Source of the DNA: Wickerhamiella versatilis
Taxonomy: Eukaryota
Length of the DNA stretch: 64,000 nt
Assembly: GCA_030867685.1 (NCBI GenBank)
Contig: JAQOWU010000008.1
Location: forward strand, 1-64,000
Direction of reading: 5' to 3'
Below are positions 1,483-63,456 of the stretch, piece by piece. The notes beneath the pieces were generated by a model. It made no database searches and was not told the DNA's origin. It saw nothing but the letters and a program-made list of their open reading frames with translations. The number at the start of each line of letters is the position of its first letter. The first letter of the stretch is position 1. A program made the translations under genes and the position numbers.

Positions 1483-1691
1483 CTATTCGTGGGGAATGCA
1501 GGCGTGGCATTGCGTAATACGTCATATATGTAAGCAACCGAAGCATGGCGCTAAAAGGGCAATACGAAGACTGTTCGTGATAGGGAACAGTGAATGTGTA
1601 TCCTTTATTTATAGAGAACACAACGTACGTACGGTATAACTTGACATTGATCTCAGGTGGGCTATCTTGCATTGTCCAACCAGTTTCAGGT
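1483..1691 (+). repeat. Dispersed repeat family A, copy 1 (about 200 bp, ending in a 41-bp unit at 1651-1691)
   Basis: Exact 25-bp match CTATTCGTGGGGAATGCAGGCGTGG with 12416-12440, patchy similarity downstream, then a 41-bp unit about 170 bp later in both copies. Confidence 0.8.
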
Positions 1692-1736
1692 TGTTATTAA
1701 TAATAAATATTAGGTGTTCGAGCGGGATTTGGTCAG

Positions 1737-2864
1737 ATGTCTGTGACTGGTGAATCGGACAAATGGGTATTCTCATGGTCTAACCAGCATCAGAGAACAG
1801 ACGAGGAGTGTCTACTACAGCTTACTCCTATGGCTACAATCGGTATCGTGTCCTTATTTTCAGGGATGCTCGTGCTTCTCCTTATATATATACATGAACG
1901 AAGTGGGTTTAACGACCCAGTGGCCTTCAAGAATGGATTTTTGCGGATATTAGATATTCGCTGCCAACCTGTTGACCATTTTCAAGCATTGTTCGCATCT
2001 GCAGTAGGAATTGGATCATGTAACTTGTTTACTGAATTATTATCTCCGGTAAAAGCATGGTTGGGGTTTTGGATTGATCACCAAAGATCACTAACTATCT
2101 CCATACTACTTTATTTGGCTTTAATATCTTTACACTTGATTACCTTTATCTCCAGGACGGCTATCATCCCAGCTGTATTAACACTTGTCTACAAGGCATC
2201 TGGAGGGGAAGGGCATCGCAACATCATTCTGGGAACCTTTGTAGTGAATGTTCTACTTCATATACTTTCAATATATTTTTCGAATGCTGAAATGAGAATA
2301 CCTACGGTATTTACAGTACTGATTAAAACGGTATCAATCCTTTCTTTAGCTGGTTTTTCGCTTTTGATACAAATGCCTATTGCTTTACGGGTAGCTAGGT
2401 TGCAAGTCAATACTACTAAACCATCGGTTACAAGCAAGAAGAAAACTATAATCATGCCGCTGTTAAAGGAAAAGCCAGTTGTCCTGGTTACTCTTGTCGT
2501 ATGCTTCTTCAATCAAGTTATTCGAACTGAGACATGTATTTCACACCTACTTGCTTCATGTACAAGCTGGATTCACATAGCTGCTTGTGGAATACTCGGA
2601 ATCCTTGGTGCAAAACATGGTATTTCTACTAGCGGTTTCCACTGGCATTGGCGGGCTTACTTGACCCCATTTATCTCGGTATTCGTTGTCAAAGTAATCC
2701 TTGCAAGTATAACTACGATGGCTGGTAAAATACCATCAAAACAGCAGTTAGATATGGCTATAACTGACATTGCAACTGGAGGTTCCTGCGGAGTCATATT
2801 CACTTATAGCTATTTCTTATTTGCGGAGCACTATGCAATACCAAGGGGATTTTGGGCTAATTGA
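1737..2864 (+). CDS. Orphan multi-pass membrane protein (375 aa)
   Basis: Long ATG-initiated ORF with many hydrophobic stretches and no recognisable motif. Confidence 0.6.
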   Translation: MSVTGESDKWVFSWSNQHQRTDEECLLQLTPMATIGIVSLFSGMLVLLLIYIHERSGFNDPVAFKNGFLRILDIRCQPVDHFQALFASAVGIGSCNLFTELLSPVKAWLGFWIDHQRSLTISILLYLALISLHLITFISRTAIIPAVLTLVYKASGGEGHRNIILGTFVVNVLLHILSIYFSNAEMRIPTVFTVLIKTVSILSLAGFSLLIQMPIALRVARLQVNTTKPSVTSKKKTIIMPLLKEKPVVLVTLVVCFFNQVIRTETCISHLLASCTSWIHIAACGILGILGAKHGISTSGFHWHWRAYLTPFISVFVVKVILASITTMAGKIPSKQQLDMAITDIATGGSCGVIFTYSYFLFAEHYAIPRGFWAN

Positions 2865-3141
2865 GACCTAATTCAATCTAGTCTATAGCAACCTTCTAAT
2901 GAGATTTAAGCTTCGTAAGACATATTAAATCTGATCCTATTGTTTCCATCTCGCCCAGTAAAGTATGTTTTCACTGGCAGTTCAGTTAAACTAGATGTAT
3001 ATGGTTCTAGGTGAAGAACGCTTAGCATTGCTTTTGAAACTGATTTATTACGGAATTAGCTTATACACCAGTGCAAGTGCGCATATTTATTCTGAAATGA
3101 TCTATGAATGCAAAGAAAAGTTGAGACATATCCTGTTATAT

Positions 3142-3635
3142 AGTGGGCTATCTTGCATTGTCCAACCGTCTCAGTAGTGAAGTGGGCTATCTTGCATTGT
3201 CCAACCAGTCTCAGGTAGTGAAGTGGGCTATCTTGCATTGTCCAACCAGTCTCAGGTAGTGAAGTGGGCTATCTTGCATTGTCCAACCAGTCTCAGGTAG
3301 TGAAGTGGGCTATCTTGCATTGTCCAACCAGTCTCAGGTAGTGAAGTGGGCTATCTTGCATTGTCCAACCAGTCTCAGGTAGTGAAGTGGGCTATCTTGC
3401 ATTGTCCAACCAGTCTCAGGTAGTTAGTGAAGTGGGCTATCTTGCATTGTCCAACCAGTCTCAGGTAGTGAAGTGGGCTATCTTGCATTGTCCAACCAGT
3501 CTCAGGTAGTGAAGTGGGCTATCTTGCATTGTCCAACCAGTCTCAGGTAGTGAAGTGGGCTATCTTGCATTGTCCAACCAGTCTCAGGTAGTGAAGTGGG
3601 CTATCTTGCATTGTCCAACCAGTCTCAGGTAGTGA
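3142..3635 (+). repeat. Tandem array of 12 x 41-bp unit AGTGGGCTATCTTGCATTGTCCAACCAGTCTCAGGTAGTGA (candidate interstitial telomeric array)
   Basis: Counted directly: 10 perfect 41-bp copies, a first copy of 39 bp (two 1-bp deletions), and a 7th copy of 45 bp (TAGT duplication). No spacers. Confidence 0.97.
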
Positions 3636-4192
3636 GAGAACACCGAGAATCATTATTCACTGAGTTACCTGCACCACTGGATTTCGCCATGAAAAATGGC
3701 TCGATAGGAGCTTTGGGGAAAATATTTTTTCGTTTTCAAAATCCTTGGTGGATAGAAGACCATCGCTTCCTTGTGATTGACCCCAATGGTGGATGTCCAG
3801 TAGCTTTTACTAATGCTTATAAGTTCAAAGGTGTTCCAGCGCTTGTAGCATTAGTTGCTCCACCGTTAACATATATGATCGAGGATAACCCTGATGAAGC
3901 CTTCCAGTTATTAAAGAAGTATTTGGAAGCTCTTCGAGTGGATGTTACACAGCCAATTCCGAACCCTAAACATATCGCTGTTACAGATTGGACTCTGAAT
4001 GAGTATTTTCTCGGGAGTTATTCTGGTATTGAAGTGGGACAATGCGCGGACGATTTGGTTACACCTTTTGAAGACGGAGCAGGTTCTATCAGGTTCGCAG
4101 GCGAACACACGACTTTAGAGGGTGTTGGTTGTATGCACGGTGCCTTCATATCAGGATAGCGAGAGGCAAATTTTATCTTGAATAGCATGTAA
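3636..4192 (+). pseudogene. C-terminal fragment of a flavin amine/polyamine oxidase (Fms1-like)
   Basis: Contains GALGKIFFRFQNPWW, VTDWTLNEYFLGSYS and FAGEHT...GCMHGAFISG*REA. The N-terminal FAD-binding half is replaced by the repeat array. An in-frame TAG at 4157-4159 falls inside the HGAxxSGxREA motif, and the frame continues to TAA at 4190-4192. Confidence 0.85.
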
Positions 4193-4280
4193 GTTCGTTC
4201 GCTCTAACAGAGTCGTCTAGAGAGTGAAGTATGTTGCACTGTAAAAGCAAGACAAAAGAGAAAAAAACTAAATTTTTCAT

Positions 4281-4349
4281 TGGACTACCTTGCATTGTTG
4301 CATGGTCCAACCAGTCTCAGGTAGTGAAGTGGACTATCTTGTACTGTCC
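4281..4349 (+). repeat. Degenerate 41-bp unit, about 1.6 copies
   Basis: TGGACTACCTTGCATTGTTGCATGGTCCAACCAGTCTCAGGTAGTGAAGTGGACTATCTTGTACTGTCC. Confidence 0.9.
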
Positions 4350-4785
4350 TTCATCCAATGAATATTTATTTCGTCAATATTATATGTACACGCGAATTAG
4401 CCTCACGACGCGCTAATCTGCATGATCTAATTACGTAGATTTTTATCTTATTATTCAGCGTTGGATTTTCCGCATGCTACATCGAGAATTCTGTAAATTA
4501 TTGTATTTTTTATAACCTATCTGTGTTTGTGGTTTATATTGTTCTCTTTAATGATTCCACTATGCGCCTTTTGAAAAGTCAATATATGTTATACTTTTAT
4601 ACTTTGTAATTTGGTAATGTAATGCTGGGATTTTTATCCAAGCTAATGTAAAATAATTCAACGCTCAAAGAAGAATAATAGAAAATAGAACCTATAGAAA
4701 ATAAAAAAAAACACAATATTCTTTGTATTCAATTCAGTAGCACTTAGATAGAATCTTATAGCATTCATCACATATTCTTGTCCAC

Positions 4786-5065
4786 CACTCGGAACTGGAG
4801 CACGAAGTCGCTAATGACTAAATTCAAGAGCTTTGATGGCATCTGAGATTGTCCAATTCATGTGGAGTTAGAATAGTTAGAATACCTTACTCAATAGAAC
4901 TTGACATTGTTTCAGGGCTGAACACATGCTTTTTTCTCATGGAAATCCCTTAGATGGTATATTCCTTATACATAAATATTCATCTCATAAGACCATAAAT
5001 GCACAATATTACTGTGGAATATCTTGCATTTTCCAACCAGTCTCAGGTAGTGAAGTGGGCTTTCT
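4786..5065 (+). repeat. Dispersed repeat family B, copy 1 (ending in a 41-bp unit at 5014-5065)
   Basis: Shares CACTCGGAACTGGAGCAC, GAGATTGTCCAA and AAATATTCAT..ATAAGACCAT..TACTGTGG with 59848-60053. Confidence 0.8.
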
Positions 5066-5297
5066 ATACATTAGGCGAACGATAGGCCTTGCTTAATCTA
5101 GTGAAGATATAAAGGACTGAGCAATCTGCTGATCACGGCCTGTATACATTCAAAACTGGCTGAATGAACGAATAGATAATTTCAGCTCAGTACTTGTAGC
5201 TGACAGCATTATGAAGCTTCTATTGTCTGGATATGGTTTTGCTGATATCTGGGAGGTCTGCATCATGATTGTGCTCCTCGATAGAATAGGATGAAGC

Positions 5298-5505
5298 TCA
5301 CATTGTATACCTGAATTCGGAGTTTTCCAAATCCGTCAAATCAGCGAACTCCGGATTTTCAATTTCGGGAGGGAGCTTAGCACCTTGCTTGTTCCTGACC
5401 CAATTACGCCAAGCATTAAGAGACACTAGTAGGAGTGTCAAAACAAACGCGGCCGCTGTTGTCGCCGCCATACTTGTCTTCCCTGTTTGATAGACAGGGC
5501 ATCAA
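5298..5505 (-). pseudogene. 3' remnant of a Dal5-like allantoate/MFS permease
   Basis: The minus strand reads PVYQTGKTSMAATTAAAFVLTLLLVSLNAWRNWVRNKQGAKLPPEIENPEFADLTDLENSEFRYTM*. This matches the C-terminus of the permease at 35064-36656 (HPEFADLTDMENPEFRYAY). The rest of the gene is absent. Confidence 0.8.
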
Positions 5506-5524
5506 AGAATTACATAGTTTCAGA

Positions 5525-7514
5525 TCAACACCAAAATCTATATATACGGTACAGAAGACCTTTGGACCTGACGTACTCAGCATCGTCAATTATTTGCTGC
5601 TTGGTTTGCTCTAGATCAATATCCCTCAAACCCGTGGTTAGATCAATTTTTGTCGACTTAATGTATGGGCTCCAATCTTTATAATGTACTTTACCAAAGA
5701 GATAGAATGCAAGTACTACTGGTAGAGATAAGTAGCCGCCCTTAAAAAAAACTTTCAGCATCTGCAGATTCCCCCATAGGCCACATAGAGGTCCACCAGT
5801 CCACAATAAGAATAAATACACTAATGCCAAATCCGACTAATGACCCCCATATACCTGTACCCGCTTTCCAAGCAAGCTCGTCTAGTGAATGCCCCTGGGC
5901 TTTCATTGCCACACGGAACCTGACATGAGCTAGGCATATTGAGCCCCATGTAAATATTTGAGCAAGGCCACTAAACGCTAGCATCCAATCAAAAACATCG
6001 GAATACTTATCGGATGCCACGAGGAAACATAGAAGACCAAAGGTCATCGAGAGTGCGACGGCAACCAACGGTCGACCCTCACGATCGATGTAAGAGACAA
6101 ATTGAGGGAAGGGTGTCATACCCTCGGTTGCAAGAGCGGTTAAAGTCCGTGTACATCCATATACCGCGGCATTTGCAACAGAAAGTAGAGCGAGGAGAAT
6201 CACTGTGTTAAAAACGCTGGGAAGACCGCTCACTCCCGCTCTTTGAATAGCAATCACAAATGGAGAGCCAGTGCCTCCATTTCCAGTCCCCAATCGAGGG
6301 TCATCATAGGGCAGCACACATCCAATTACGATGGTAGATACAACATAGAACAGTATGACTCGCCAAAATATCTGTTTGACAGCTGCTGGTAGTGATCTGG
6401 TAGGGTTATCGGCCTCGGCAGCCGCAAGCCCCGCGAGTTCCGTGCCAGAAAAAGCAAATGCTGCATTTACTAACACAGAAAACACGCCCTTGACCGAGTT
6501 AGCAAATGCACCAGGGTCATGCCAATATCTACCACCAATATAGCCCGTTCCATCTATAGGATATTTGTAACCTGGTGCAGGAAGTTGATACCAATACTGA
6601 CCAAGAGCATATTTAGAGTAAAAATTTGTCCCATTAGGATTTATTCCATTCATGTACCAACAGGGTTGACTTGTATTTACGGAGCCGTTGGCAAAGAGAT
6701 GCCCACTGGATACCAGAACACTATCACTAGTATCTGGAAGATATTGGCAGTGTGGTTTCCCATCCTGTGTCCATCCAGGAACACCTGGGGTTCCACCAGC
6801 AGCCTGAATAATTCCAAAGATGCAGAATCCCACAACAGCCATTACTTTAATAATACTGAGGATGAACTCGGCCTCTCCGTATCCTCGAACCCCAAATACA
6901 TTTATCATGAGGATGAGTGACCAGAACAGAGCCACCCAGCCTGATGCATTTTGCCTTAGCACTGCGCCATTATTGTCGGATTGCCAATAGCTAATAGTCA
7001 TAGCGGTACCAATTAGCTCTAAGGGGACGGTGACAAGTTGGCTTAACGCATAGTTCCAGCCCATAGCGAAGCCCCATGATTTATCAATGAACCGTGATGA
7101 AAAAATGGAGAATGCACCACTCACGGGGTAACGGACCGCTAGTTCTCCTAAGGCATGCATAGTGCAAAATAAAAGTATTCCCATGACACTAAAACCGATC
7201 ACGACTGCGGCTGGGCCTCCTGTTTGATAATTATTTGCCGAGCCGATGAATAGACCGCTACCAATACTGCCGCCAATAGCAATCATCTGCAAATGTCGAT
7301 TCTTCAATCTCCGTTTGAGAGGGGATCGAGCAATTAGGATAGCGTTGATCTCATCCGGTTTCATACCAGTAGTGTCAACATCATTTATGTTGGCACGTTT
7401 GAAACCGCTGATTAGATTCTGTAGCCATCCCGCTTCAACCACAGTTGTAGTCCCTTCGTCCCAGTGGGTATCTTTCTGCAGACGATGCGACATATCCTTC
7501 TCAGTGACGCTCAT
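5525..7514 (-). CDS. General amino acid permease (APC/YAT family, Gap1-like) with an apparent +1 frameshift in an 8-nt homopolymer near 5744-5751
   Basis: Motifs LKNRHLQMIAIGGSIGSGL, GYGEAEF and FAFSGTELAG. The C-terminus, ending in the family FWC motif, lies in the overlapping ORF 5525-5830. Removing one T gives ESFFKGGY. Likely start MSVTEK at 7514. Confidence 0.9.
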
Positions 7515-7902
7515 TCTGAATGAAAGGCAGCTTGTGCTAGCTGCAAGTCTAATTGCTAATATATATTTATTTCGGGCCAATCAGGCGCATAATGACAAGA
7601 AACCCTTCCCCGATATTAGATCAGATTAACTTTATAAGTACACGTAAATATGTGCTAAGGAATCATCACTCCAGCTTGGTGGTCTCAAAGAAAATACTTT
7701 TTTAAGGCTACTAGTTGGTGTTATCCATCACTGATTCCGAAGAAGTCAAAAAAGATTAGTGAAGAGATCAATTACAAAGCACGATATCGGAATATCGGAA
7801 GATTGGAATATCCACGCTCTCTACTTAGACTATCTAAGCATCCTACTCATGAATTTCGATAATTGAACAAGAATGATCCCTTAACATTTTGTATAAATTA
7901 TT

Positions 7903-7938
7903 TTCAGGTGGGTACCTTGTCATATCCAGCCAGTATCA
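7903..7938 (+). repeat. Degenerate 41-bp unit upstream of the metC-like gene
   Basis: TTCAGGTGGGTACCTTGTCATATCCAGCCAGTATCA aligns to the consensus GTGGGCTATCTTGCATTGTCCAACCAGTCTCA. Confidence 0.55.
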
Positions 7939-8106
7939 TACCACCATCACCTGTCTCACTCCACTCCGAGCCGTTCCGTTCCGTTCAATTGATAAGCTTA
8001 GGTTTATGCGTCACAGCGTGATAACCTCTCATCGTATTCCGATTGTCTCTCAGGGAAAATTGTTTGATTTGCAACTGACTCAGGTTCCTAAGATAGGATA
8101 CTGGAT

Positions 8107-9225
8107 ATGCAAACATATCGGCAGCTGAATCCTCCTATTTACAGAGCTTCAACGATACTCTTTGACACTGTGGATCAGTTCCTCGCACGGTCAAACTATT
8201 TGTATGACGGTTACACGTATGGAGTCGGTGGTACCCCAACCATGCGAGAATTGGAGACAGTAGTTGCTGATATTGAAGGGGGTACCAGGTCGCTAGTGGT
8301 GCCATCAGGCTTGGCAGCTCTCACTCACTCACTTTTGGCATTCTGCAAAGCCGGAGATCACGTACTCGTTGTGGACTGTACATACAGTGGAAACAGAGAC
8401 TTTTGTCAAACTACTTTATCAGATATAAATATTGATGTGGAATTAATCCCTTCTTCGGCCAATACTATTGCTTCCAGTCTACGTCCAGAAACTCGTCTGG
8501 TGGTTTTAGAGTCACCTGGTTATTATACTATGGAAATTCAGGATATAGATTCAATCACCAGGGAAGCACACAACGCAGGCGCATTAGTATTGATTGACAA
8601 TAGTTGGGGATTTGGATTCTCTAAAATGTTTGAGCACGGAGTCGATATTAGTTGTGTTGCGCTGTCAAAATACGCTAGCGGAGCAGGAGACCTTTGCTTA
8701 GGTGCGATTACAGTGAAAGACGAAGGCTTGTTCAAATCACTGAAACGTTTTCTATATAATATCGGTGCAGCTGTTTCGTCTGAAGATGCTTACCTCGTTT
8801 TGAGAAGCTTACCCTCCTTGCAAACTCGGGTGCATGAGCACGCTCGTCGGGCCCAAGAAGTATCAAAATACCTTGCAGCACTTCCTGGAGTCGAAGTGGT
8901 GTTAAATCCAGTAATTCCTAGTGCGCCTTACCACGAGCGCTTTAAGAAATACTTCAGCTCAGGAAATGGTCTCTTCTCTGTGAAGTTTAAGGATTGCTCC
9001 CTGAGTAACCTGCGCAAGATGATTGATAGCTTCAGCCTTATCCGCATAGGTGCAAGCTGGGGGAGTGCACATAGTCTGGTTTCGATTACTCGCCCAGCTT
9101 CCAGTCGAACAATCGATGAGCATCCACAGGACAATTATTTAGTTAGATTCCACATTGGCCTTGAAAACTTCCAATGCATAATGGAAGACATAAAGAAAGG
9201 TATCAAACTGCTAAATCAAGGGTAG
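8107..9225 (+). CDS. metC: Cystathionine beta-lyase / cysteine-S-conjugate lyase, bacterial MetC type (Irc7-like)
   Basis: NPPIYRASTILF, GTPTMRELE, LESPG, IDNSW, PLP lysine in ALSKY, IGASWG, VRFHIGLE. Confidence 0.85.
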   Translation: MQTYRQLNPPIYRASTILFDTVDQFLARSNYLYDGYTYGVGGTPTMRELETVVADIEGGTRSLVVPSGLAALTHSLLAFCKAGDHVLVVDCTYSGNRDFCQTTLSDINIDVELIPSSANTIASSLRPETRLVVLESPGYYTMEIQDIDSITREAHNAGALVLIDNSWGFGFSKMFEHGVDISCVALSKYASGAGDLCLGAITVKDEGLFKSLKRFLYNIGAAVSSEDAYLVLRSLPSLQTRVHEHARRAQEVSKYLAALPGVEVVLNPVIPSAPYHERFKKYFSSGNGLFSVKFKDCSLSNLRKMIDSFSLIRIGASWGSAHSLVSITRPASSRTIDEHPQDNYLVRFHIGLENFQCIMEDIKKGIKLLNQG

Positions 9226-9510
9226 AAGTTAGGATAATTATAACCTAGAAGAATAGTGATTAGTTTAAGAGAATTCTTGGTGTCCTTAATACGTTCTACC
9301 TACGCTGGCGAAAATACGAGCGCCACTCTATACTGCTGGCCAGAAACCGACTTAGGCAAATATTATTATTTGTCATCAAAGGTCATTGACGAGTAGCACT
9401 ACAAAAAGTTCCACTCCTGTATACAAAAAGTTATTTGAGCCATTAAGACCTAGATCATATGATGTCTTTCATGAGAATCATTTAAGCACAAAAAAAAGAA
9501 TTGTTTTAAG

Positions 9511-11268
9511 TCAAGCAAATCTTTCGTTCATCATAAGTAGTTCGTTAAGCAATAAATTATGATCAAAATCACCGGATGCAGATTCTGAATCATCCTTTCT
9601 TAACGCATTTTCTGCCTCAGAGATGCCACCTGAAAGAGAAGCTAGCTCTTTTTCCTTACGCTTCTTTAGAAGAGTAATGAGTTCCTTTGAAATTCCAATC
9701 GTATTCGAAACCTCTTGGGTGTTGAATTGCTGGCTCACTATATACATGGTTTTGATAATGTCCTGGATCTGTGATGTGAATTCAGGCTGATCAATCACGA
9801 TTACCATAGACAAAAGGTGGAACGGGACGTTGATGACCTGCCACCAAGGATGGGTCTTCGTGGCAAGCTCTTCACAGCAGGAAAGCGACTGCATTGCGAT
9901 TTTTACAAGGCCGCTAAGGGTTGATTCGCTCACATTAAAAACTTTCATACGACGGAATAACACAATTGCTAAGTAGCTTCGATCCAAAGAGACTACTGGG
10001 TCTGAAGTCTCAAATTCCATTAGGCTGTAAAGAGCATTATAGCATAACTCTGGTTCGATACCACCAGGCACGAAAATACTTTTAGTCTTGTCATAGATTT
10101 CTACAAGAGCAGGAGCCATGTCTCTTTCATCCGTTGCTACTGGATATTGACATCTGAGGCATGTGAAAGATATTCTAGGTAGGGCAATCTCCCGTGATAA
10201 CCAAGTGTTAAAAATTTCCAAGCACCAAAAAAGATGTCTCAAGTGATTAGGGTCCTGCTTGAGAGACCCCCATTTTCTCTCGTCGTTCAAGTTTATGAAG
10301 CTTGCTATTGTGGCCGACCGGGTGCATGCCACCCAGCAACTTATGGGTGTGGCAGTTAATCGGAGATATATCATGCGAAGCATCCATGCCATCACCTGAA
10401 ATACTCCAGCGGCATCAGCTGAGATATCGTCTACTGATCGTGGATGTTCCAGCGTATCTTGAACTTTCGAAAGGGTAATCTGCTCCAAATATGCTGTAAA
10501 TTCAGGATTGAAAACTTTATTTTTTCGAGAAAATAAACATCCAAGAGCTATAACACCACATATTACTGGCTTATAATAACTGGCTTCTCTGGAAATAGGT
10601 ACAGACCTATCATTATTATACTCAAACGTAACAAAATTTTCAAATTGATCCCTGTTGATGATACCATAGACCGGATTCACTGACTCGAAGAACGAACTAC
10701 TATAAATAAATAGTTGCTCAATCGAAATAAGAGAGGGTATTTCAGGAATATCTCCCCTCGGGAAATATTGTGGGCTTGGGATCCCAAAGTTAAAAGCAGG
10801 AGTTTGGAATTTGGATGAGTTCCTATAATCAAGCATCCCTATTAGTCTTTGAAAGGATGATGAGCTTGATATTGCATCAGATAATTCCTCCCTTAATCGC
10901 TCGCCACTCTCATCGTCCGAGCTACGAGAAGGTAACTCAATTCCAACCCTAACAATAGCTAGTACAGGCTTTTCGGTGCCATTCTGTCTAGTCTCCATAG
11001 TTAGATTTGATTCAGCTGTCCTATCTACATTTGGAGCGCAGTCTTGCACTTTATCAACTACCTCAACTGGCCTCGATGTCGACTCATAAATACACTCATA
11101 ATCGTAGCGAATACATGTACTGCAAGGCTTAAGTCCATTACAACGACGCCTACTTTTACGGCACCTGGTGCAGGCACCTCCATTCCGTATACGACGCGAA
11201 GTTTTGTTGAACGAAGGCTCGGATTTCCCCATAGCCAGTTGAACAAGATGACTCATCGTCGCCTCCAT
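9511..11268 (-). CDS. Zn(II)2Cys6 transcription factor (paralog of 24787-26577)
   Basis: CTRCRKSRRRCNGLKPCSTCIRYDYEC binuclear cluster plus a fungal TF middle region. Confidence 0.9.
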   Translation of the reverse strand: MEATMSHLVQLAMGKSEPSFNKTSRRIRNGGACTRCRKSRRRCNGLKPCSTCIRYDYECIYESTSRPVEVVDKVQDCAPNVDRTAESNLTMETRQNGTEKPVLAIVRVGIELPSRSSDDESGERLREELSDAISSSSSFQRLIGMLDYRNSSKFQTPAFNFGIPSPQYFPRGDIPEIPSLISIEQLFIYSSSFFESVNPVYGIINRDQFENFVTFEYNNDRSVPISREASYYKPVICGVIALGCLFSRKNKVFNPEFTAYLEQITLSKVQDTLEHPRSVDDISADAAGVFQVMAWMLRMIYLRLTATPISCWVACTRSATIASFINLNDERKWGSLKQDPNHLRHLFWCLEIFNTWLSREIALPRISFTCLRCQYPVATDERDMAPALVEIYDKTKSIFVPGGIEPELCYNALYSLMEFETSDPVVSLDRSYLAIVLFRRMKVFNVSESTLSGLVKIAMQSLSCCEELATKTHPWWQVINVPFHLLSMVIVIDQPEFTSQIQDIIKTMYIVSQQFNTQEVSNTIGISKELITLLKKRKEKELASLSGGISEAENALRKDDSESASGDFDHNLLLNELLMMNERFA

Positions 11269-11575
11269 TCCGTTCCGCTCCTATCATCGGGAGATGAATA
11301 GTTATGTTTCACAAGTCCAAATAGAGGACCTTAGATCTGTCTTGCTTAGGATCAAACGCCATGAGAGTAATATACTGGTTCTCTGTCAGGGTCGCGGAGC
11401 GAAGCTTAGATGATTAAAGAAACAGTAATGGCTGCTTTGATTGACCATGAAAGATAGCTCTAATGTGGTCATCTGATGACGCCTTTTCTGATTAAATTTT
11501 GAGAGGTTTGAACTTTACATTGGCGAGTTCTTCCGTCCTGATTCAAGTTCTTATTATGGTTTTTACGTTGATAGC

Positions 11576-11592
11576 AAGTGGACTATCTTGCA
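11576..11592 (+). repeat. Short relic of the 41-bp unit
   Basis: AAGTGGACTATCTTGCA (16/17 identity to the consensus). Confidence 0.65.
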
Positions 11593-11923
11593 CGTTTCTC
11601 GGGCTGGTCCGGGCTTGCTTTACGAGGGATCTTATCATCATCTGATTTCATTGTGAATGGAAGACCTTTCTGATCATAAAGATTCAAGAGTCCCTGAGAG
11701 CTACAGCATCGAGGGTGAGGCTACATACCTATATTTAACATATTGTCGACTTGTTATTCTCCCACTATAAGTTACGTTTCAAAGCTTTTTATATCCTTGC
11801 GTGCAAGATCACTGAATTCATTTTCAGAACGACCTTCAGTATTTATACTGTCAAATTAGGACATACATTTTAGTCATGATCAAGGCACAAAGTAATGGAA
11901 GGTGACGGGCAAATGGCAGCAGC

Positions 11924-11952
11924 AGTAGGCTATCTTGCATTGTCCAACCAGT
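11924..11952 (+). repeat. Partial 41-bp unit
   Basis: AGTAGGCTATCTTGCATTGTCCAACCAGT (28/29). Confidence 0.9.
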
Positions 11953-12415
11953 TCGGAATCTCCAGTCTTGCTGCAGACCACATGGCCATGTCCGTAGAGA
12001 AAAAACATCATTTTTCACATGATTTGCATTAACTCATTGCATGAAGAAATTTCCTTAGGCTTTGATGCGACTCACGTTGCTTTGCTTGTTTCAGCCACCA
12101 AAGTGAGCTATTCATTATATGACTGCAAAGTAATATTTTTTTTCTGTATATTCCTTTATATCTTTTTGTAATAGTAGACTATCGATGTATTATTCATACT
12201 AAGATACCTACTTAAATTTTATGTTGTCAAATCATGAAACATACTTTTCAGATCAGAATCAGCACATGAATAGGTGATTAATGAGATTATAAGTAGATGA
12301 TAAGTAGCGACTCCATACTCCATTCAGGTCAGCCAGGCGTAATATAACCGCCAAACTATGACCTACCTTTAGCATGTGATCAGTTCACCCACCCTGACTC
12401 CACCGCCAGAGCTGT

Positions 12416-12670
12416 CTATTCGTGGGGAATGCAGGCGTGGAATTGCGTCATATTTCATAACAGTAAGCAATTGGTGGCGCATAGTATAACACAAGGGCTA
12501 TTCGTGAGACCGGTAAATACGTATAATCTAATCGCGGAGAACATTAAGCGAATCATGTGCAATGTAAATTGATGTTAATCTTAAGTGGGCTTTCTTGTAT
12601 TGTCCAACCAGTCTCAGTATTGAAGTGACCAGTAGTATAAATTCTGAACCATCATCCTTATAGTGGGCTA
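12416..12670 (+). repeat. Dispersed repeat family A, copy 2, with a 41-bp unit at 12583-12627 and a stub at 12662-12670
   Basis: Match to 1483-1691; unit reads AAGTGGGCTTTCTTGTATTGTCCAACCAGTCTCAGTATTGAAGTG. Confidence 0.8.
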
Positions 12671-13880: not shown

Positions 13881-13952
13881 AATTGCATATTACTAAATGA
13901 TAATGTATGTATGACTATCAAAAAATTACGAGTGAATCCTAATTCTGAGCGC

Positions 13953-13969
13953 TGCAAGATAGCCCACTT
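13953..13969 (-). repeat. Short relic of the 41-bp unit (inverted)
   Basis: TGCAAGATAGCCCACTT is the exact reverse complement of AAGTGGGCTATCTTGCA. Confidence 0.8.
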
Positions 13970-16646: not shown

Positions 16647-16670
16647 GTTGGATAATACAAGATGCCCACT
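16647..16670 (-). repeat. Degenerate relic of the 41-bp unit (inverted)
   Basis: Reverse complement AGTGGGCATCTTGTATTATCCAAC versus consensus AGTGGGCTATCTTGCATTGTCCAAC. Confidence 0.7.
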
Positions 16671-27577: not shown

Positions 27578-27615
27578 AGTGGGCTATCTTGCATTGTCCA
27601 ACCAGTCTCAGGTAG
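27578..27615 (+). repeat. Perfect partial 41-bp unit (38 bp)
   Basis: AGTGGGCTATCTTGCATTGTCCAACCAGTCTCAGGTAG. Confidence 0.95.
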
Positions 27616-29828: not shown

Positions 29829-29863
29829 AAGTGGGCTATCTTGCCTTGTCCAACCGGTCGCAG
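29829..29863 (+). repeat. Partial 41-bp unit
   Basis: AAGTGGGCTATCTTGCCTTGTCCAACCGGTCGCAG. Confidence 0.9.
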
Positions 29864-33452: not shown

Positions 33453-33478
33453 TGCAAGATAGCCCATTTCACTTCCTG
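33453..33478 (-). repeat. Relic of the 41-bp unit (inverted)
   Basis: Reverse complement CAGGAAGTGAAATGGGCTATCTTGCA versus CAGGTAGTGAAGTGGGCTATCTTGCA (24/26). Confidence 0.85.
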
Positions 33479-45591: not shown

Positions 45592-45711
45592 CAATTTTGT
45601 AGTGAGTGACCGCTTATTTCTTATTTCTTATTCCTTATTAGCTGGATTAATGAGAAGTTTCAGGTCAGGATGAGATCTAAGTCAGTTCCATCCAGTCTCA
45701 GGTAGCGAAGT
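45592..45711 (+). repeat. About 60-bp direct repeat, right copy (45592-45667), followed by a 41-bp unit relic (45687-45711)
   Basis: Matches 40395-40456 with an internal TTATTTC expansion, then TCCATCCAGTCTCAGGTAGCGAAGT. Confidence 0.8.
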
Positions 45712-52219: not shown

Positions 52220-52252
52220 AAGCGGGCTATCTTGCGTTGTCCAGCCAATCTC
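52220..52252 (+). repeat. 41-bp unit relic overlapping the 3' end and stop codon of the Zn2Cys6 gene
   Basis: AAGCGGGCTATCTTGCGTTGTCCAGCCAATCTC (29/33 to the consensus). Confidence 0.85.
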
Positions 52253-59308: not shown

Positions 59309-59847
59309 TTCGCGCAATTGATGTCGGTGGTGTTACTGCAACGATATGTTGCAGGTGGTATGGCTACCTTACAATGACGTAGAGTTAAAGTTTGAATCGT
59401 CGCAATTGTCTGTCTGCGCTCTTCCTAGTATTGTGGCTGGCTGCTTTGCTAGTTTGATTTGATTTACGTGTTATTTATAATATTTTCCTTAACAGTTTAA
59501 CTTCCATTTCAACGTATTAACATATACTGAGATAAATATCAGGGTTGTAATGTCAAATCATAAAGCATAATTTTATTACTTTGACAAAGACTTCTTGTTT
59601 ACTGGATACGATCACCATGGTCAATTACAATAAGTAGGCTTAAAATTAAAATCTGCTGACACGTGTGTGGTCTGATGCACGAGTCATATCCCACACAAGT
59701 TATGATATCTCGCGCTGCCCAAAAATATGGGAACAAGAGTCACTTTATTGATGGTTCTTCACTAGATAGACTACTAACTATCGATATACTGGGGCCTTCC
59801 AAAGCACCGGGCTCAGTAAGCACTAAAATCCAAAAAGGATTGTCTAT

Positions 59848-60053
59848 CACTCGGAACTGGAGCACAGAGCCGCTAATGATTTGATTTAAGAGCTTGAACG
59901 GATGCCAAAAAAGATATCGGCGTCAGAGATTGTCCAAATAAATGTACACAAATATTCATATTATAAGACCATGAACTCGATAATACTGTGGGCTATCCTG
60001 CATTGTCCAACCAGTCTCAGGTGGTGAAGTGAGGAGGCGGGCTATCTCGCATT
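59848..60053 (+). repeat. Dispersed repeat family B, copy 2, with a 41-bp unit at 59988-60053
   Basis: Match to 4786-5065; unit reads GTGGGCTATCCTGCATTGTCCAACCAGTCTCAGGTGGTGAAGTG...GCGGGCTATCTCGCATT. Confidence 0.85.
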
Positions 60054-60163: not shown

Positions 60164-62422
60164 ATGTTAGGTTTGAGGGCTTCAGATGATCCGAAGAAGA
60201 ACGATGTCATTCATTCGATTGAAACGCAGGTCAGTGTGAGCAAGTCAGACTCGTCGATTTCTTCGGACTTAGACGAGGATGTTGCTGAGCTCCCACTGGA
60301 AGTCCGCGACATTGTCCCACTAGAGGACGACCCTAATATCCCTGTTTCGACCTTTCGGTATTTCGTACTATCCATAATTTTTGTTATTCCTGGAGCCTTC
60401 ATAGACACCATGAATTCGTATAGAACTACCGCAGCAGCATACTCTATATTTTTTGTGCAAATTGCTTCACATTGGGTCGGAAAATGGCTGGCTAGAGTTC
60501 TTCCAAACAAGCGAGTTGGCTATGGTAAACTGTCATTCAATCTTAATCCTGGGCCCTGGAGTATCAAGGAGACTGCACTAATCACTATAACGGCCAGCAG
60601 CGGGGCTACTGGTAGCCAAGGCACTACGCCGTTGTCATTAGCTGAAATATTCTATGGAGAAACAGTAAACCCGGCAGTTGCTATCTTTTTCATGTGGGCA
60701 ATTGTATTCGTAGGGTACTCCTATGCAGCAATCGCACGGAACTTCTTGCTTTACGACAGCCAATTCACCTGGCCGCAAGCACTCATGCAGACTACACTTT
60801 TTCAAACTCAAAAGAGAGCAGACGATGATTCTCGGAAAGGTCGCAAGCACATGAGGATTTTCTTTGCAGTGCTTATAGGATTGACAGTCTGGCAGTTTTT
60901 CCCAGAATATATCTTTCCGATGACTTCATCGCTGGCCTTTTTATGTTGGGTAGCATCTAGAAATTCAACTGCCAATTTTATTGGTTCCGGAATGGGTGGC
61001 ATGGGCCTCCTGAACTTGACCTTAGACTGGTCAAATATTACGTCTTCCATTATGCTGTACCCTTATTGGATTCAAGTGATTCAGTTTGCGGCATTTATCT
61101 TGGGTGCATGGATATTAATCCCCGCGGTAAAGTGGGGCAACCTATCCAGCTATAAATTTGGCCTTATGTCTAATAGCTTGTTCACTAATAATGGCACCAA
61201 ATATCCTACGAGTGAATTGCTTACTCCGAGTCTACAGTTGAATACTGCCCGTTTTGAAGAGTTAGGTGATGTTCACATGGGAGCGCAAAAGGCTTGGAAC
61301 ATGTTTTTTGACTATGCGGCCTATGTCAGTGGGTTTGTATGGGTAGTATGTTTTGGCTGGGCTGGAATGAAATCGTCACTTATAAAGCTAATTAAGTCGA
61401 TCAAGGATCGGAGGGGTGATGTGAGACAGATAAACCTGCAATACACGGATCGGCTCAACAAAATCCAATCTGCATATAAGGAAGTACCATTCCTCTGGTA
61501 TGGTATACTTTTTGCAATTTCATTTATTATTCTAATTGTTATTCTTGCTACAGATAGCCTCTTCATGCCTTGGTGGTGTATGCTGGTGGGTCTTGCGTTC
61601 GGGGCAATTATCTGCACTCCTCTCGCATGGCTTTATGCACTCTCAAACTTCCAGCTGGCCATTGGAACTTTTAACGAGCTTCTCTATGGCTATATGGTTC
61701 AAAACTCTTCGAAGCGTCACCCGGCTGGAGCAACAGTCTACGGAGCAATTGCAGGAGATGCCTGGTACAGGTGTCAGTACATCCTTCAGGATCAAAAAAT
61801 AGGACATTACATGCATCTCCCGCCGCGATCAGTTTTTTTCTCACAGATATTCGGAGAGCTTATAGGTGTACCTATCAATTATGCTGCTCTTAGATGGGTT
61901 CTTAGTTCGAAGATGGACTATCTGAATGGAAGCAAACCCGACCCTTTACATCAATGGACTGGACAATCCATTGTATCATATAATACTAATGCAGTACAGT
62001 ATGTGATTCTTGGTCCATCGCGGCTATTCAAGAATTACCCTGTTCTGCCTTATGGGTTCCTGGTTGGTGCTGCAGCTCCTATTGTGTTCTATGGTCTCCA
62101 TAGACTATTCCCGAAATCTCACCTTAGATTTGATTTGTGGAACACCACAGTATTCTTCTCAAGCATGGCTACTTTCTATGGAAACTTGTCCACTGGATAC
62201 GTCTCCAAGTTTATCGGCGGAACAGTCACAATGTTTTGGGCTTATAGGTACCGTCACAACCTTTGGAAGACATATAATTATCTGTTGGCAGCAGCCTTGG
62301 ATACGGGGTTTAATTTGAGCACGTTGTTGATATTTTTGTTTTTCTCCGCCGGTAAAACCGTTACTATGCCTAACTGGTGGGGAAATAATGCTGATAGCGT
62401 CGAGCGTTGTTTTACTCTCTAG
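60164..62422 (+). CDS. Oligopeptide transporter (OPT family)
   Basis: DDPNIPVSTFR, NPGPWSIKE, FPEYIFP, YKEVPFLWY, QDQKIGHYMHLPPR, YNYLLAAALDTG, NWWGN. Confidence 0.95.
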   Translation: MLGLRASDDPKKNDVIHSIETQVSVSKSDSSISSDLDEDVAELPLEVRDIVPLEDDPNIPVSTFRYFVLSIIFVIPGAFIDTMNSYRTTAAAYSIFFVQIASHWVGKWLARVLPNKRVGYGKLSFNLNPGPWSIKETALITITASSGATGSQGTTPLSLAEIFYGETVNPAVAIFFMWAIVFVGYSYAAIARNFLLYDSQFTWPQALMQTTLFQTQKRADDDSRKGRKHMRIFFAVLIGLTVWQFFPEYIFPMTSSLAFLCWVASRNSTANFIGSGMGGMGLLNLTLDWSNITSSIMLYPYWIQVIQFAAFILGAWILIPAVKWGNLSSYKFGLMSNSLFTNNGTKYPTSELLTPSLQLNTARFEELGDVHMGAQKAWNMFFDYAAYVSGFVWVVCFGWAGMKSSLIKLIKSIKDRRGDVRQINLQYTDRLNKIQSAYKEVPFLWYGILFAISFIILIVILATDSLFMPWWCMLVGLAFGAIICTPLAWLYALSNFQLAIGTFNELLYGYMVQNSSKRHPAGATVYGAIAGDAWYRCQYILQDQKIGHYMHLPPRSVFFSQIFGELIGVPINYAALRWVLSSKMDYLNGSKPDPLHQWTGQSIVSYNTNAVQYVILGPSRLFKNYPVLPYGFLVGAAAPIVFYGLHRLFPKSHLRFDLWNTTVFFSSMATFYGNLSTGYVSKFIGGTVTMFWAYRYRHNLWKTYNYLLAAALDTGFNLSTLLIFLFFSAGKTVTMPNWWGNNADSVERCFTL

Positions 62423-62702
62423 ACTTGAGATCATAGATTCAATTTAAATATCCATAAGTGGGAATATACAAATATAAATTTATGTTTAGGATCATTTGTG
62501 AAGCGAAAGAAAATGCATTGGGCGTATGAAAAGAAAGATAAGGTACTATTTGCATATTTGTACTATGCGCTAACCTTAATCTTCGAATTTATCAGTCTTA
62601 AAGACTTGTAAATGCGGTAGCGGTGCCTGCTCCCGAATAAAAAGTCACGTGAGGTGATGTTTTCGTTACACTTCAAAGCTTTTCCTTCGCCGACAAGAGT
62701 GA

Positions 62703-63161
62703 ATGGTCACAAAGATCACAATGGATATCGAAAAGAACAAGTCACTACAAAATATAGCTCTATTAGATGATGGTGATTTCATGGATAATGATATCGATCC
62801 ACATGATGCCACCCTTCGTTACAAGACGCTCACCTGGCCCAAGGCAACCGTTCTCCTCTTATCAGTGTATATTTGCCTACCATTAATGTCTTTTCCTTGG
62901 GCTTTCTCGATTTTGGGCCTCGTCCCAGGCATAATAATCACAGCATTCATCACGTTCATCACATGGTACACAGGTCTCACTATTACAGAATACTCGATCG
63001 CTAATCCAGGAGTAACAGATGTTTGTGACATTGAAATACTCATGGGGCTTTACTTCTTTGGGCCGGGAGTCTATTCAACTGTACAGAGTATAGTCTGGAA
63101 CTACCAATCAGGAGAGTACGGCAGTCCCTTCAGTTGCGCAAGTACTGCATTTATACCATAA
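62703..63161 (+). pseudogene. Internally deleted neutral amino acid permease (Aa_trans, Mtr-like)
   Basis: N-terminal YKTLTW...SFPWAFSILGLVPG...VTDVCDI is joined directly to C-terminal GLYFFGPGVYSTVQSIVWNYQSG...FSCA. The product is only 152 aa. Confidence 0.75.
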
Positions 63162-63407
63162 GTATTGAGAGGCTGATAAGTAGCTGAGCTCAGTGGCTGG
63201 TGCTCAGTGCACTTGATATTGCAGTGTATATCTAAATCGTTGGTAACTAATATTAATATCGCCTGACTGGGCAGATCACATGCGTGCCATTGTTTACATA
63301 ATTACGGGTGCTAGTAAACGAAACCTTATAAAGTAGGGCAGGTGCCGCGATACCATGTGAATATATCATCAAATCTTCTCCTCATGAATTTTTATAATTT
63401 CATCTTG

Positions 63408-63456
63408 TGAAGTGATGTAAGCCTAACTTGCATTTTCCAACCATTCTCTAAAGTAG
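63408..63456 (+). repeat. Degenerate 41-bp unit
   Basis: TGAAGTG...CTAACTTGCATTTTCCAACCATTCTCTAAAGTAG. Confidence 0.65.

What the first reader, a model, noticed from the sequence alone, without database searches (positions are those of the whole stretch)
1651..63456. One 41-bp motif punctuates the whole region between genes, like junction scars of a gene-capture system
Seen: besides the array, partial copies occur at 1651, 4281, 5014, 7903, 11576, 11924, 12583, 12662, 27578, 29829, 45687, 52220, 59988 and 63408 on +, and at 13953, 16647 and 33453 on -. Weaker candidates lie at 27148, 38104, 44541 and 45403. That is roughly one every 3-4 kb. They are intergenic except where they cut or cap a gene, are biased to one strand, and range from perfect to highly decayed, implying different ages. 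Most share the left boundary (A)GTGGG while their right ends vary. They divide the window into blocks of one to several accessory genes, many of bacterial type. Knowledge: telomere relics at the borders of captured sequence are known in Pyricularia oryzae, and interstitial telomeric sequences can arise by telomerase acting at breaks. Inference: the region grew by repeated break, repeat addition and capture of new DNA, so it is a telomere-templated gene-accretion array. The alternative is a site-specific recombination or integration site resembling an integron attC; no recombinase gene is present in the window.
Basis: partly seen in the sequence, partly recalled or inferred. Interest (0 to 1): 0.88.

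Follow-up and report, generated by a model that had tools for sequence, protein, structure and literature searches.

The report
Telomere-like 41-bp relics between yeast genes
A 41-base repeat that is probably this yeast's chromosome-end repeat has left about fifteen short, same-facing scars between genes in 64 kb, which marks the region as a patchwork built by repeated breakage and rejoining near a chromosome end.

Summary
Besides the 12-unit array (3142-3635), 15 of the 17 named partial copies are far above chance: 0 expected at their scores. 7903 is borderline, and 12662 and the four "weaker" sites are at chance level. Twelve face +, three face -. Fourteen lie wholly outside ORFs. Eleven of 15 begin at unit phase 41/1/2, while right ends scatter.

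The host is a budding yeast with standard CTG, probably Dipodascales. A Wickerhamiella/Starmerella identity is a lead only. Gene content is subtelomere-like, with at least three bacterial-type genes.

In four public runs the unit is strongly multi-copy, about 500x single copy in one run by my arithmetic, and joined to many different flanks. One 16-kb contig matches the window at about 99% starting exactly at relic 11576. Both internal duplications that include a relic end inside it. The array abuts a 5'-cut amine oxidase gene.

Best reading (0.6): interstitial relics of a long telomerase-templated repeat, marking old ends or repair joints and later used for ectopic recombination. Terminal location of the unit was not shown, because no genome was held and supplements were closed.

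An integron-like site, a transposon end and a regulatory site all fail tests. This is a new variant of a known kind.

The parts
3142..3635 (+). Tandem array of 12 units of the 41-bp repeat. Unit 1 has two 1-nt gaps and unit 7 a 4-nt insertion; the other ten are identical. It begins at phase 1 and ends at phase 41.
1657..1694 (+). Relic, phases 2-39, 43 nt upstream of ORF 1737-2864. It is preceded by CTCAG, giving a variant unit junction.
   Evidence: score 66
4281..4349 (+). Composite relic: a partial unit (phases 3-19) followed by phases 12 to 22 of the next unit.
   Evidence: score 84
5014..5072 (+). Relic of 1.4 units, phases 2 to 18. Its left flank is paralogous to that of 59988.
7908..7938 (+). 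Borderline decayed copy (score 25; 0.6 per window expected by chance).
11576..11592 (+). 17-nt relic, phases 41-16. It is the exact start of likeness of a 16-kb contig from run X10.
   Evidence: score 29
11924..11952 (+). Relic, phases 1-29.
12583..12627 (+). Relic of 45 nt, phases 41 to 4. Its left flank is paralogous to that of 1657.
13953..13969 (-). 17-nt relic, phases 41-16, minus strand.
16647..16670 (-). Relic, phases 1-25 with one gap, minus strand. Together with 13953 it brackets the MFS gene 14354-16054(-).
   Evidence: score 33
27578..27615 (+). Perfect 38-nt relic, phases 1-38.
29829..29863 (+). Relic, phases 41-34.
33453..33478 (-). Relic, phases 32-16 across a unit junction, minus strand.
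45687..45711 (+). Relic, phases 20-3. It is one of the four without the common left edge.
52220..52252 (+). Relic, phases 41-32, lying between two convergent ORFs. It supplies the stop codon of ORF 52227-54191(-).
   Evidence: read directly from the sequence
59988..60053 (+). Relic of 1.6 units with an irregular unit junction, 110 nt upstream of the OPT gene.
63411..63448 (+). Decayed relic, phases 37-32.
   Evidence: score 39
1483..1656 (+). Left flank shared with 12416-12582 (69% over 212 bp including the relic). Likeness stops at the right end of the relic.
4778..5013 (+). Left flank shared with 59840-59987 (about 84%, with indels). Likeness stops inside the relic.
3689..4159 (+). 3' third of an amine oxidase gene (Pfam profile positions 281-435 of 443). 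The reading frame and family-like residues run to within about 10 codons of the array edge.

Best explanation
**What it is.** The 41-bp unit is most likely the long, telomerase-templated chromosome-end repeat of this budding yeast. The scattered pieces are interstitial telomeric relics.

**Proposed mechanism (inferred).**
1. A break in a chromosome-end domain is extended by telomerase from a template about 41 nt long.
2. Extension runs for less than one to about 1.6 rounds, or for many rounds in the case of the array.
3. Synthesis is tied to the template edge, so one edge of every tract falls at the same phase (the (A)AGTGGGC side). The other edge depends on where the broken end paired or where synthesis stopped.
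4. The short tract is then joined to other DNA by end joining or break-induced replication, which buries it.
5. Buried tracts later serve as short homologies for ectopic exchange between chromosome-end regions. This swaps the DNA on one side.

**Result.** A mosaic of one- to five-gene blocks of accessory genes, some of bacterial type.

**Open point.** Which strand telomerase makes, and so on which side the chromosome end lies, is unresolved. I lean to the end lying to the left, with the minus strand as product.

**Shown here:** the tracts, their phase rule, their multiplicity and their coincidence with boundaries.

**Inferred:** telomerase, terminal location, and the order of events.
For: 1. 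There is a near-perfect head-to-tail array of about 0.5 kb with both edges at unit boundaries.
2. Fifteen sub-unit to 1.6-unit copies are present, with 0 expected by chance. Flanks are unique for 11 of the 15.
3. Eleven of 15 start at phase 41/1/2, while right ends are spread over at least 11 phases. Across four runs, several contigs per run with unlike flanks diverge just before 3597-3602, and others diverge behind 3621-3635 (table 7; 220 rows not shown).
4. Twelve of 15 share an orientation, with no consistent relation to gene orientation.
5. Irregular units cluster at the unit junction. Examples are the 4-nt insertion in unit 7, CTCAG|GTGGG at 1657 and 7908, the odd junction in 59988, and AGAGGG after 3635 in three runs. 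This is where telomerase translocates.
6. The unit is abundant. The bin holding one unit has a mean summed contig depth of 298-823, against 4-25 for unique bins. Bin values are means over the bin, because X10's 0.91 equals 24 nt x 25.2 / 667. The unit therefore sums to about 13,000 in X10, roughly 500x single copy, from at most 188 laid contigs. That implies collapsed tandem copies (the arithmetic is mine). In small budding-yeast genomes such tandem DNA is usually rDNA or telomeres (established knowledge).
7. Boundaries coincide with relics. Both relic-bearing duplications end in the relic. X10 record 4 fits 11576-23595 with 102 differences and has only 24 further letters. That is the length expected if the next sequence is repeated elsewhere, given 31-letter words and the relic's private A at 11581 (inference).
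8. The array abuts a 5'-cut amine oxidase gene, and relic 52220 caps an ORF.
9. Gene content is subtelomere-like: permeases, MFS and sugar transporters, six Zn2Cys6 factors, a GLEYA adhesin and glycosidases.
10. Putative telomeric motifs of 5 to 43 nt are reported in yeasts (PMC7857110, passages and section 7 read).
Against: - The unit was never seen at a chromosome or contig end. No genome was held, and two scans of JGI metagenome contigs gave nothing usable.
- The unit is barely strand-skewed (G 11, C 9 on +) and has no TTAGGG. It has only TCAGG and AGTGGG.
- The tandem-junction contigs that table 5 did list have only about 1-5x unique depth. The list is truncated, so this is weak.
- Decay of relics shows no gradient along the window, so simple one-directional accretion is not supported.
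- Three relics face the other way, and four lack the common edge.
- The abundance estimate rests on my reading of how bins are averaged.
- Two pairs of relics are copies of each other, so there are fewer independent events than loci.
Confidence: 0.6

Rival explanations
1. The 41-mer is a non-telomeric satellite or minisatellite of the chromosome-end domains. Fragments of it are scattered by unequal or ectopic recombination and by templated insertion at breaks, without telomerase.
For: There is a tandem array plus dispersed pieces, the copy number is high, and both relic-bearing duplications end in the motif. No terminal copy was observed. The unit is not G-rich.
Against: A satellite does not predict one fixed phase edge at 11 of 15 loci with unrelated flanks, seen again across four runs. 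It also does not predict pieces shorter than one unit standing alone. Satellites of this kind are unusual in small budding-yeast genomes (established knowledge).
Confidence: 0.2
2. The motif is the fixed end of a retroposed or transposable element, for example 5'-truncated copies of a retroelement tail or a telomere-targeted element like MoTeR. The relics are then dead insertions.
For: A fixed end combined with a variable end is the signature of truncated reverse-transcribed copies. Two pairs share 170-240 bp beyond the motif. MoTeR relics mark former ends in the blast fungus (PMC7367193, passages).
Against: No reverse transcriptase, transposase or integrase domain appears in 30 + 10 ORFs scanned. 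No inverted repeat of 40 nt or more was found (0 pairs). Eleven of 15 relics share nothing beyond the 41-mer. Copies of 17-38 nt and a 12-unit perfect array do not fit a discrete element. There is no poly(A) or target duplication at the edges (read, not tested formally).
Confidence: 0.1
3. The motif is a functional site: a target of a site-specific recombinase (integron attC-like cassette site), or a protein-binding regulatory or replication element kept between genes.
For: It lies strictly between genes and is in part well conserved. Blocks hold one to several accessory genes.
Against: Neither strand folds better than shuffles: z is +0.7 to +2.6, and 154-200 of 200 shuffles fold at least as well. 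No recombinase was found. Genes in the blocks face both ways, and the motif lies upstream, downstream or between convergent genes without rule. Copies are truncated to different lengths, down to 17 nt, which a binding site would not tolerate. A 12-unit array is also not expected.
Confidence: 0.05

Closest known systems
Interstitial telomeric tracts at subtelomeric duplication boundaries (TG1-3 tracts between X and Y' elements of Saccharomyces cerevisiae; human subtelomeric duplicon borders). Recalled, not read here.
   Same: These are short telomere-type tracts buried between blocks near chromosome ends. They share an orientation, sit at borders of duplicated segments, and serve as substrates for ectopic recombination.
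   Different: Here the unit is 41 nt, so most tracts are less than one unit and reveal a phase rule (one fixed edge) that short repeats cannot show. Density is about one per 4 kb over at least 64 kb. Terminal identity of the unit is not yet shown.
Telomere-tagged MoTeR relics in Pyricularia (Magnaporthe) oryzae (PMC7367193; passages read).
   Same: Internal relics serve as tags of once-terminal sequence. Twelve of 19 such relics define duplication boundaries. The proposed routes are NHEJ and break-induced replication after telomere breakage.
   Different: Those relics are retrotransposon 3' ends plus TTAGGG. Here no retroelement sequence accompanies the motif, and no RT gene is in the window.
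Bdelloid rotifer telomeric regions (PMC2861651, passages read; Gladyshev et al. 2008, recalled).
   Same: Chromosome-end regions combine ORFs of foreign origin with short stretches of telomeric repeats.
   Different: That case is an animal with a short repeat and abundant telomeric retroelements. A link between repeats and foreign genes is not tested here beyond three bacterial-type genes in the window.
AT-rich 'end' domains of Wickerhamiella/Starmerella yeasts that collect horizontally acquired genes (PMC13376923; passages read).
   Same: These are budding yeasts of the same order as the best named permease hits. They have very long telomere-adjacent domains with accessory and xenologous genes, and the window was found in food-fermentation runs.
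   Different: That paper's main text does not contain the word 'interstitial'. It gives the telomere motifs only in a supplement I could not open. Whether this window comes from one of those species is a lead, not a result.
Telomerase-mediated insertion of telomeric repeats at double-strand-break repair sites (Nergadze et al. 2004, 2007). Recalled.
   Same: Short telomere-type insertions appear at repair joints away from the end.
   Different: Those are scattered genome-wide in mammals. Here the copies are concentrated in a subtelomere-like region and share an orientation.
Integron attC sites.
   Same: A repeated short site lies between gene cassettes.
   Different: No hairpin symmetry, no integrase, genes in both orientations, and copies truncated to varying lengths.

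Membership tests
Interstitial telomeric sequence (telomere relic) | Sequence is the same as the organism's terminal telomere repeat or telomerase RNA template. | not testable with these tools
   No whole genome was held. The motif is absent from searchable paper text and from JGI contigs.
Interstitial telomeric sequence (telomere relic) | Head-to-tail tandem organisation of the unit where more than one unit is present. | tested here: met
   The 12-unit array. The tracts at 4281, 5014, 12583, 33453 and 59988 cross a unit junction in register.
Interstitial telomeric sequence (telomere relic) | Common orientation along a chromosome arm. | tested here: met
   Twelve of 15 secure relics, plus the array, are on +. 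Two of the three on - bracket one gene.
Interstitial telomeric sequence (telomere relic) | Sits at borders of duplications or of differences between strains. | tested here: met
   Two of 2 relic-bearing duplications end in the relic. X10 record 4 begins its match at 11576. The same contig passes colinearly through five other relics, so most relics are not current strain breakpoints.
Interstitial telomeric sequence (telomere relic) | Lies near a chromosome end. | tested here: inconclusive
   Gene content is subtelomere-like, but the window's position on its chromosome is unknown.
Integron-like cassette site (attC) | Imperfect inverted repeats that fold into a hairpin. | tested here: not met
   The unit and the two-unit strand fold no better than shuffles on either strand.
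Integron-like cassette site (attC) | Neighbouring site-specific recombinase. | tested here: not met
   No recombinase or integrase domain in 40 ORFs scanned, ten of them at E up to 1. This covers the window only.
Transposon or LTR terminus | Copies share sequence beyond the terminus, and termini are paired. | tested here: not met
   Eleven of 15 share only the 41-mer. There are 0 inverted-repeat pairs of 40 nt or more. No transposase or RT domain was found.
Cis-regulatory element | Constant position and orientation relative to the genes it serves, and intact length. | tested here: not met
   Copies lie upstream, downstream or between convergent genes, and lengths range from 17 to 66 nt.
5S rRNA-derived repeat | Significant likeness to the 5S gene. 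| tested here: not met
   Unit against the window's own 5S gene scores 13. The shuffle mean is 13.8, and 341 of 500 shuffles score as high.

The most novel reading that the evidence does not exclude
In this yeast lineage, telomerase with an unusually long template routinely 'seeds' broken chromosome ends with less than one repeat. These seeded ends are then joined to whatever DNA is at hand, including bacterial DNA. On this reading the dense, phase-locked 41-mer scars are the footprints of the process that builds the giant chromosome-end domains, and they would explain the exceptional load of horizontally acquired genes in Wickerhamiella/Starmerella-type yeasts.
Probability: 0.2. Interest if true: 0.85.

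Novelty: new variant of a known kind. Interest (0 to 1): 0.58.

Why it matters
- **A readable phase.** Buried telomere tracts are known markers of old chromosome ends, but with 6-8-nt repeats their phase carries no information. A 41-nt unit makes each scar readable. The fixed edge and the spread of the other edge record how the tract was made and how it was joined.
- **A mechanism to test.** If the unit is confirmed as the telomere repeat, this region offers a dense natural series of repair joints. These could be used to infer telomerase behaviour at breaks in a non-model yeast.
- **A link to horizontal gene transfer.** A genome-wide map of the scars against xenolog borders and strain breakpoints would test directly whether chromosome-end healing is the entry route for foreign genes. 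This matters in a lineage noted for horizontal gene transfer, where the mechanism is open (PMC13376923, passages read).
- **If it is not telomeric.** The phase-locked dispersal would then itself need a new explanation.

Tried and rejected
- **Whole genome.** None was held, so genome-wide density and distance from ends could not be mapped.
- **Earlier findings.** There were none for this genome or sequence. The word search gave only relics in other organisms.
- **Paper text search.** I searched six substrings of the unit on both strands. The only hit was an unrelated duck SPRN paper holding one 14-mer.
- **Telomere papers.** The papers I read give no motif for this lineage in their main text. 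The tables that may hold it are supplementary table 1 of PMC7857110 and Supplementary Data 12 of PMC13376923, which are supplements I could not see.
- **JGI metagenome contigs.** The 32-mer gave 0 hits. The 21-mer gave one hit inside a GC-rich, apparently bacterial coding region with no repeat. About one such hit is expected by chance, so I rejected it.
- **Sequencing runs.** No RNA holder was listed.
- **Parts without cover.** X10 has none at 5597-11575 and X7 none at 12934-19603. I do not use these as evidence of absence.
- **Tandem-junction contig depth.** I first read the low depth in table 5 as evidence against a telomere. I dropped that reading because the table is truncated and the bin depths imply high-depth contigs.
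- **5S rRNA origin of the unit.** Rejected.
- **Hairpin or attC-like fold.** Rejected.
- **Rfam and tRNA scans.** Nothing lies at the relics.
- **NCBIfam scan.** It did not settle which genes are of bacterial origin.
- **Truncated TF paralog 28270-29169.** Its likeness stops about 650 bp from the nearest relic, so no link is shown.
- **Aa_trans fragment 62703-63161.** The 250 bp between it and relic 63411 is stop-ridden in all frames, so 'cut by the relic' could not be shown.
- **Polarity of the telomerase strand.** Composition, array-edge phases, truncated genes and the position of variant units give conflicting or symmetric answers. It remains unresolved.
Full report
**What is there**

Tandem Repeats Finder reports a 41-bp repeat at 3142-3635 with 12.0 copies and 97% matches. 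Read directly, ten units are identical. The first has two single-base gaps and the seventh a 4-nt insertion. The array starts at unit phase 1 (AGTGGGC...) and ends at phase 41 (...GGTAGTGA).

Searching two halves of the unit with up to 3 mismatches gave 21 and 16 matches, with 0 expected.

Local alignment of every claimed site against three tandem units, together with a sliding scan of the whole window, gives 15 loci outside the array with scores of 29 or more. Ten block shuffles gave none at that score. An independent blastn-short scan gives 14 loci at 26 bits or more, against 0.03 expected from 30 dinucleotide shuffles.

- 7903/7908 (score 25) is borderline.
- 12662 is a bare 9-mer.
- The four 'weaker' sites score 23-27, where 0.2 to 2.1 chance loci per window are expected.

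**Anatomy of the copies**

- Orientation: twelve of the 15 are on + and three on -.
- Position: fourteen do not touch any listed ORF, although ORFs cover 67% of the window. The fifteenth, 52220-52252, overlaps the last 26 nt of ORF 52227-54191(-) and supplies its stop codon (and the sequence).
- Length: 17 to 66 nt, that is 0.4 to 1.6 units.
- Left edge: eleven of 15 begin at phase 41, 1 or 2, and 4281 begins at phase 3.
- Right edge: phases 16, 16, 16, 18, 18, 22, 25, 29, 32, 32, 34, 38, 39, 3 and 4.
- Left flank: the bases just left of the fixed edge show no common pattern.
- Gene relation: the motif lies upstream of genes, downstream of genes and between convergent genes, with no rule.
- Fold: neither strand of the unit folds better than shuffled sequence.
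- Other scans: no tRNA gene, and no Rfam match apart from a 5S rRNA gene at 36848-36968. The unit is not 5S-like.

**The surroundings**

Pfam scans of 40 ORFs show:
- amino-acid, oligopeptide, sugar and MFS transporters;
- six Zn2Cys6 factors;
- a GLEYA/PA14 adhesin with internal repeats;
- GH2 and GH3 glycosidases;
- oxidoreductases;
- gene fragments.

None shows a recombinase, transposase or reverse transcriptase. This is typical subtelomeric content for a yeast (established knowledge).

Evidence on the organism:
- CTG codons of the OPT gene sit at Leu-conserved columns in 9 of 13 cases, so the yeast is not in the CUG-Ser clade. This holds even though the best named OPT hits are Scheffersomyces (77%).
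- The amino-acid permease's best named hits are Wickerhamiella sorbophila (64% and 61%), then Magnusiomyces, Blastobotrys, Sugiyamaella and Starmerella.
- I take the organism to be a budding yeast, probably of the Dipodascales. A Wickerhamiella/Starmerella identity is a lead only.

Three genes look bacterial:
- the trans-sulfuration enzyme 8107-9225, whose named hits are all bacterial at 40-57% identity;
- the MarR-GNAT fusion 33798-34742;
- the NMO-type oxidoreductase 12945-13880.

The Atlas itself warns that its taxa are not proof of transfer.

**Evidence from elsewhere**

Runs holding 4200-14199 are mostly food-fermentation, food and sediment metagenomes. I laid Logan contigs of X5, X6, X7 and X10 on 3596-23595. 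Four things follow.

1. *The relic junctions are real.* Contigs from runs not flagged as the possible source bridge them:
   - 5014 is bridged by X6 record 18.
   - 7908 is bridged by X5 record 11, X6 record 20 and X7 record 26.
   - 11576 is bridged by X5 record 13, X6 record 21 and X7 record 29.
   - 11924, 12583, 13953 and 16647 are bridged by X10 record 4.

2. *The unit is strongly multi-copy.*
   - The first bin, which holds one unit, has mean summed depth 298, 421, 536 and 823. Unique bins have about 7, 4, 8 and 25.
   - Bin values are means over the bin, because X10's 0.91 for 10933-11599 equals 24 covered bases x 25.2 / 667.
   - The unit therefore sums to about 13,000 in X10, some 500 times single copy, from at most 188 laid contigs.
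   - Some contigs must then be collapsed tandem copies. This is my arithmetic, not a tool figure.

3. *The phase rule holds genome-wide.*
   - Several contigs per run with unlike flanks (agreement about 0.5) part from the unit just before 3597-3602.
   - Others part behind 3621-3635.
   - 220 rows of the table were not shown, and contigs running over the left end of my stretch are not counted as loose ends. I therefore draw no conclusion from the numbers on each side.

4. *One relic is a strain-level breakpoint.*
   - X10 record 4, a 16,058-bp contig, fits 11576-23595 with 102 differences and 17 gaps. It has only 24 letters beyond 11576.
   - Likeness starts exactly at a relic.
   - The contig stops where words of 31 letters cease to include the relic's private A at 11581. 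That is expected if the next sequence is repeated elsewhere in that genome (inference).
   - The same contig runs colinearly through five other relics, so most relics predate the split of these strains.
   - X10 records 2 and 3 (10.8 and 26 kb) carry 48-51-nt copies well inside them, so interstitial copies exist at other loci.

**Boundaries inside the window**

Self-comparison finds only two duplications that include a relic:
- 1483-1694 with 12416-12627 (69%);
- 4778-5057 with 59840-60031 (about 84%).

In both, likeness begins at a sharp point 170-240 bp to the left and ends inside the relic. The right flanks are unrelated.

At the right edge of the array, the reading frame of a 3' amine oxidase fragment (Pfam profile 281-435 of 443) runs into the array. 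Family-like residues extend to within about 10 codons of the edge. A break inside that gene was therefore sealed by the array.

Other gene fragments lie in the spacers: MFS C-termini at 5304-5498(-) and 1344-1424, and a truncated paralog of the factor 46641-48749 at 28270-29169. None of these abuts a relic.

**How it most likely works**

The simplest account is that the 41-mer is a telomerase-templated end repeat.

Telomerase copies a fixed template, and each round ends at the template boundary. A long template lets a broken end pair at many internal positions. A tract made in less than one round, or in a few rounds, therefore has one edge locked to the template boundary and one free edge. That is the pattern seen.

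Irregular units cluster at the 41/1 junction: the insertion in unit 7, CTCAG|GTGGG at 1657 and 7908, the junction in 59988, and AGAGGG after 3635 in three runs. This is where translocation occurs.

A tract joined to other DNA becomes a buried relic. Relics then act as short homologies for exchange, which explains duplications and strain differences that end in them.

Long putative telomeric motifs of up to 43 nt are reported in budding yeasts (PMC7857110).

Which strand is the product is not settled:
- For the + strand: it carries the only GGG and a TCAGG, and the one variant terminal unit is at the left.
- For the - strand, with the end lying to the left: the 'round ends at the boundary' logic, the gene remnants abutting the variable edges (3636 and 52252), and the X10 contig that shares the right side and differs on the left.
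- I lean to the second at about 60:40.

**What is not shown**

- No copy was seen at a chromosome end.
- The relics show no decay gradient along the window.
- Only three genes were shown to be bacterial-like.
- No test links foreign genes to relic borders.

The claims of ordered accretion and of a 'gene-capture system' are therefore not supported beyond what a dense subtelomeric patchwork implies.

**Comparison with known systems**

The closest kinds are:
- interstitial telomeric tracts at subtelomeric duplication borders in S. cerevisiae and humans (recalled);
- telomere-tagged MoTeR relics in the blast fungus, of which 12 of 19 define duplication borders (PMC7367193);
- bdelloid rotifer telomeric regions, where foreign ORFs and short telomeric stretches co-occur (PMC2861651).

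A 2026 paper describes very long AT-rich 'end' domains that gather xenologs in Wickerhamiella versatilis. It searched telomere motifs with word sizes 5-60. Its main text does not contain the word 'interstitial', and the motifs are in a supplement I could not open (PMC13376923).

What differs here is the long unit, the sub-unit relics with a readable phase rule, and the density.

Integron-like sites, transposon ends, regulatory sites and a 5S origin each fail a defining test.

**Verdict**

- The telomere-relic reading is the best supported (0.6), but terminal identity of the unit is unproven.
- The gene-capture framing is only partly supported.
- This is a new variant of a known kind, of moderate to good interest.

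Noticed in passing
window 36848-36968 (+): A lone 5S rRNA gene (Rfam 77.6 bits, full length) sits between an MFS gene and a short ORF. It is dispersed, not part of an rDNA unit.
   Followed up: partly
window 60164-62422 (+): The OPT transporter's best named relatives are CUG-clade yeasts (Scheffersomyces 77%). The gene nevertheless uses CTG at Leu-conserved columns (9 of 13), and the neighbouring permease points to Dipodascales. This may be yeast-to-yeast transfer or family complexity.
   Followed up: partly
window 40631-44101 (-): A 1156-aa GLEYA/PA14 adhesin-like ORF has 60-bp and 126-bp internal tandem repeats (41526-41977 and 42702-43261).
   Followed up: no
window 8107-9225 (+), 12945-13880 (+), 33798-34742 (+): Three genes resemble bacterial families. 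The trans-sulfuration enzyme has only bacterial named hits (40-57%). The NMO-type oxidoreductase and the MarR-GNAT fusion have nearest Atlas clusters that are 86-100% bacterial.
   Followed up: partly
window 18957-20688 (+): ORFs 18957-19634 and 19627-20688 overlap by 8 nt. The second matches positions 97-394 of a 399-position transporter model. This is probably one MFS gene split by a frameshift or sequencing error.
   Followed up: no
window 28270-29169 (-) and 46641-48749 (-): The 299-aa Zn-cluster ORF is a truncated paralog (43% identity over residues 1-299) of the 702-aa factor 18 kb away.
   Followed up: partly
window 5304-5498 (-) and 1344-1424 (+): Stray C-terminal fragments of MFS transporter genes lie in spacers (44.6% over 65 aa to ORF 35064-36656; 55.6% over 27 aa to ORF 19627-20688).
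   Followed up: no
window 29941-30071: An unrelated 44-47-bp tandem repeat (2.9 copies) lies 78 bp to the right of relic 29829-29863.
   Followed up: no
window 40417-40456 and 45628-45667: A 40-nt stretch is repeated at 95% identity on either side of the adhesin gene. The second copy ends 20 nt before relic 45687, and no relic follows the first copy.
   Followed up: partly
window 13953-16670: Two of the three minus-strand relics bracket the single MFS gene 14354-16054(-). This would fit one inverted block rather than two independent events.
   Followed up: no
L001 6927-6947: An exact 21-mer of the unit junction lies inside a GC-rich coding region of a JGI metagenome contig. It has no repeat, and I judged it a chance match.
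   Followed up: yes
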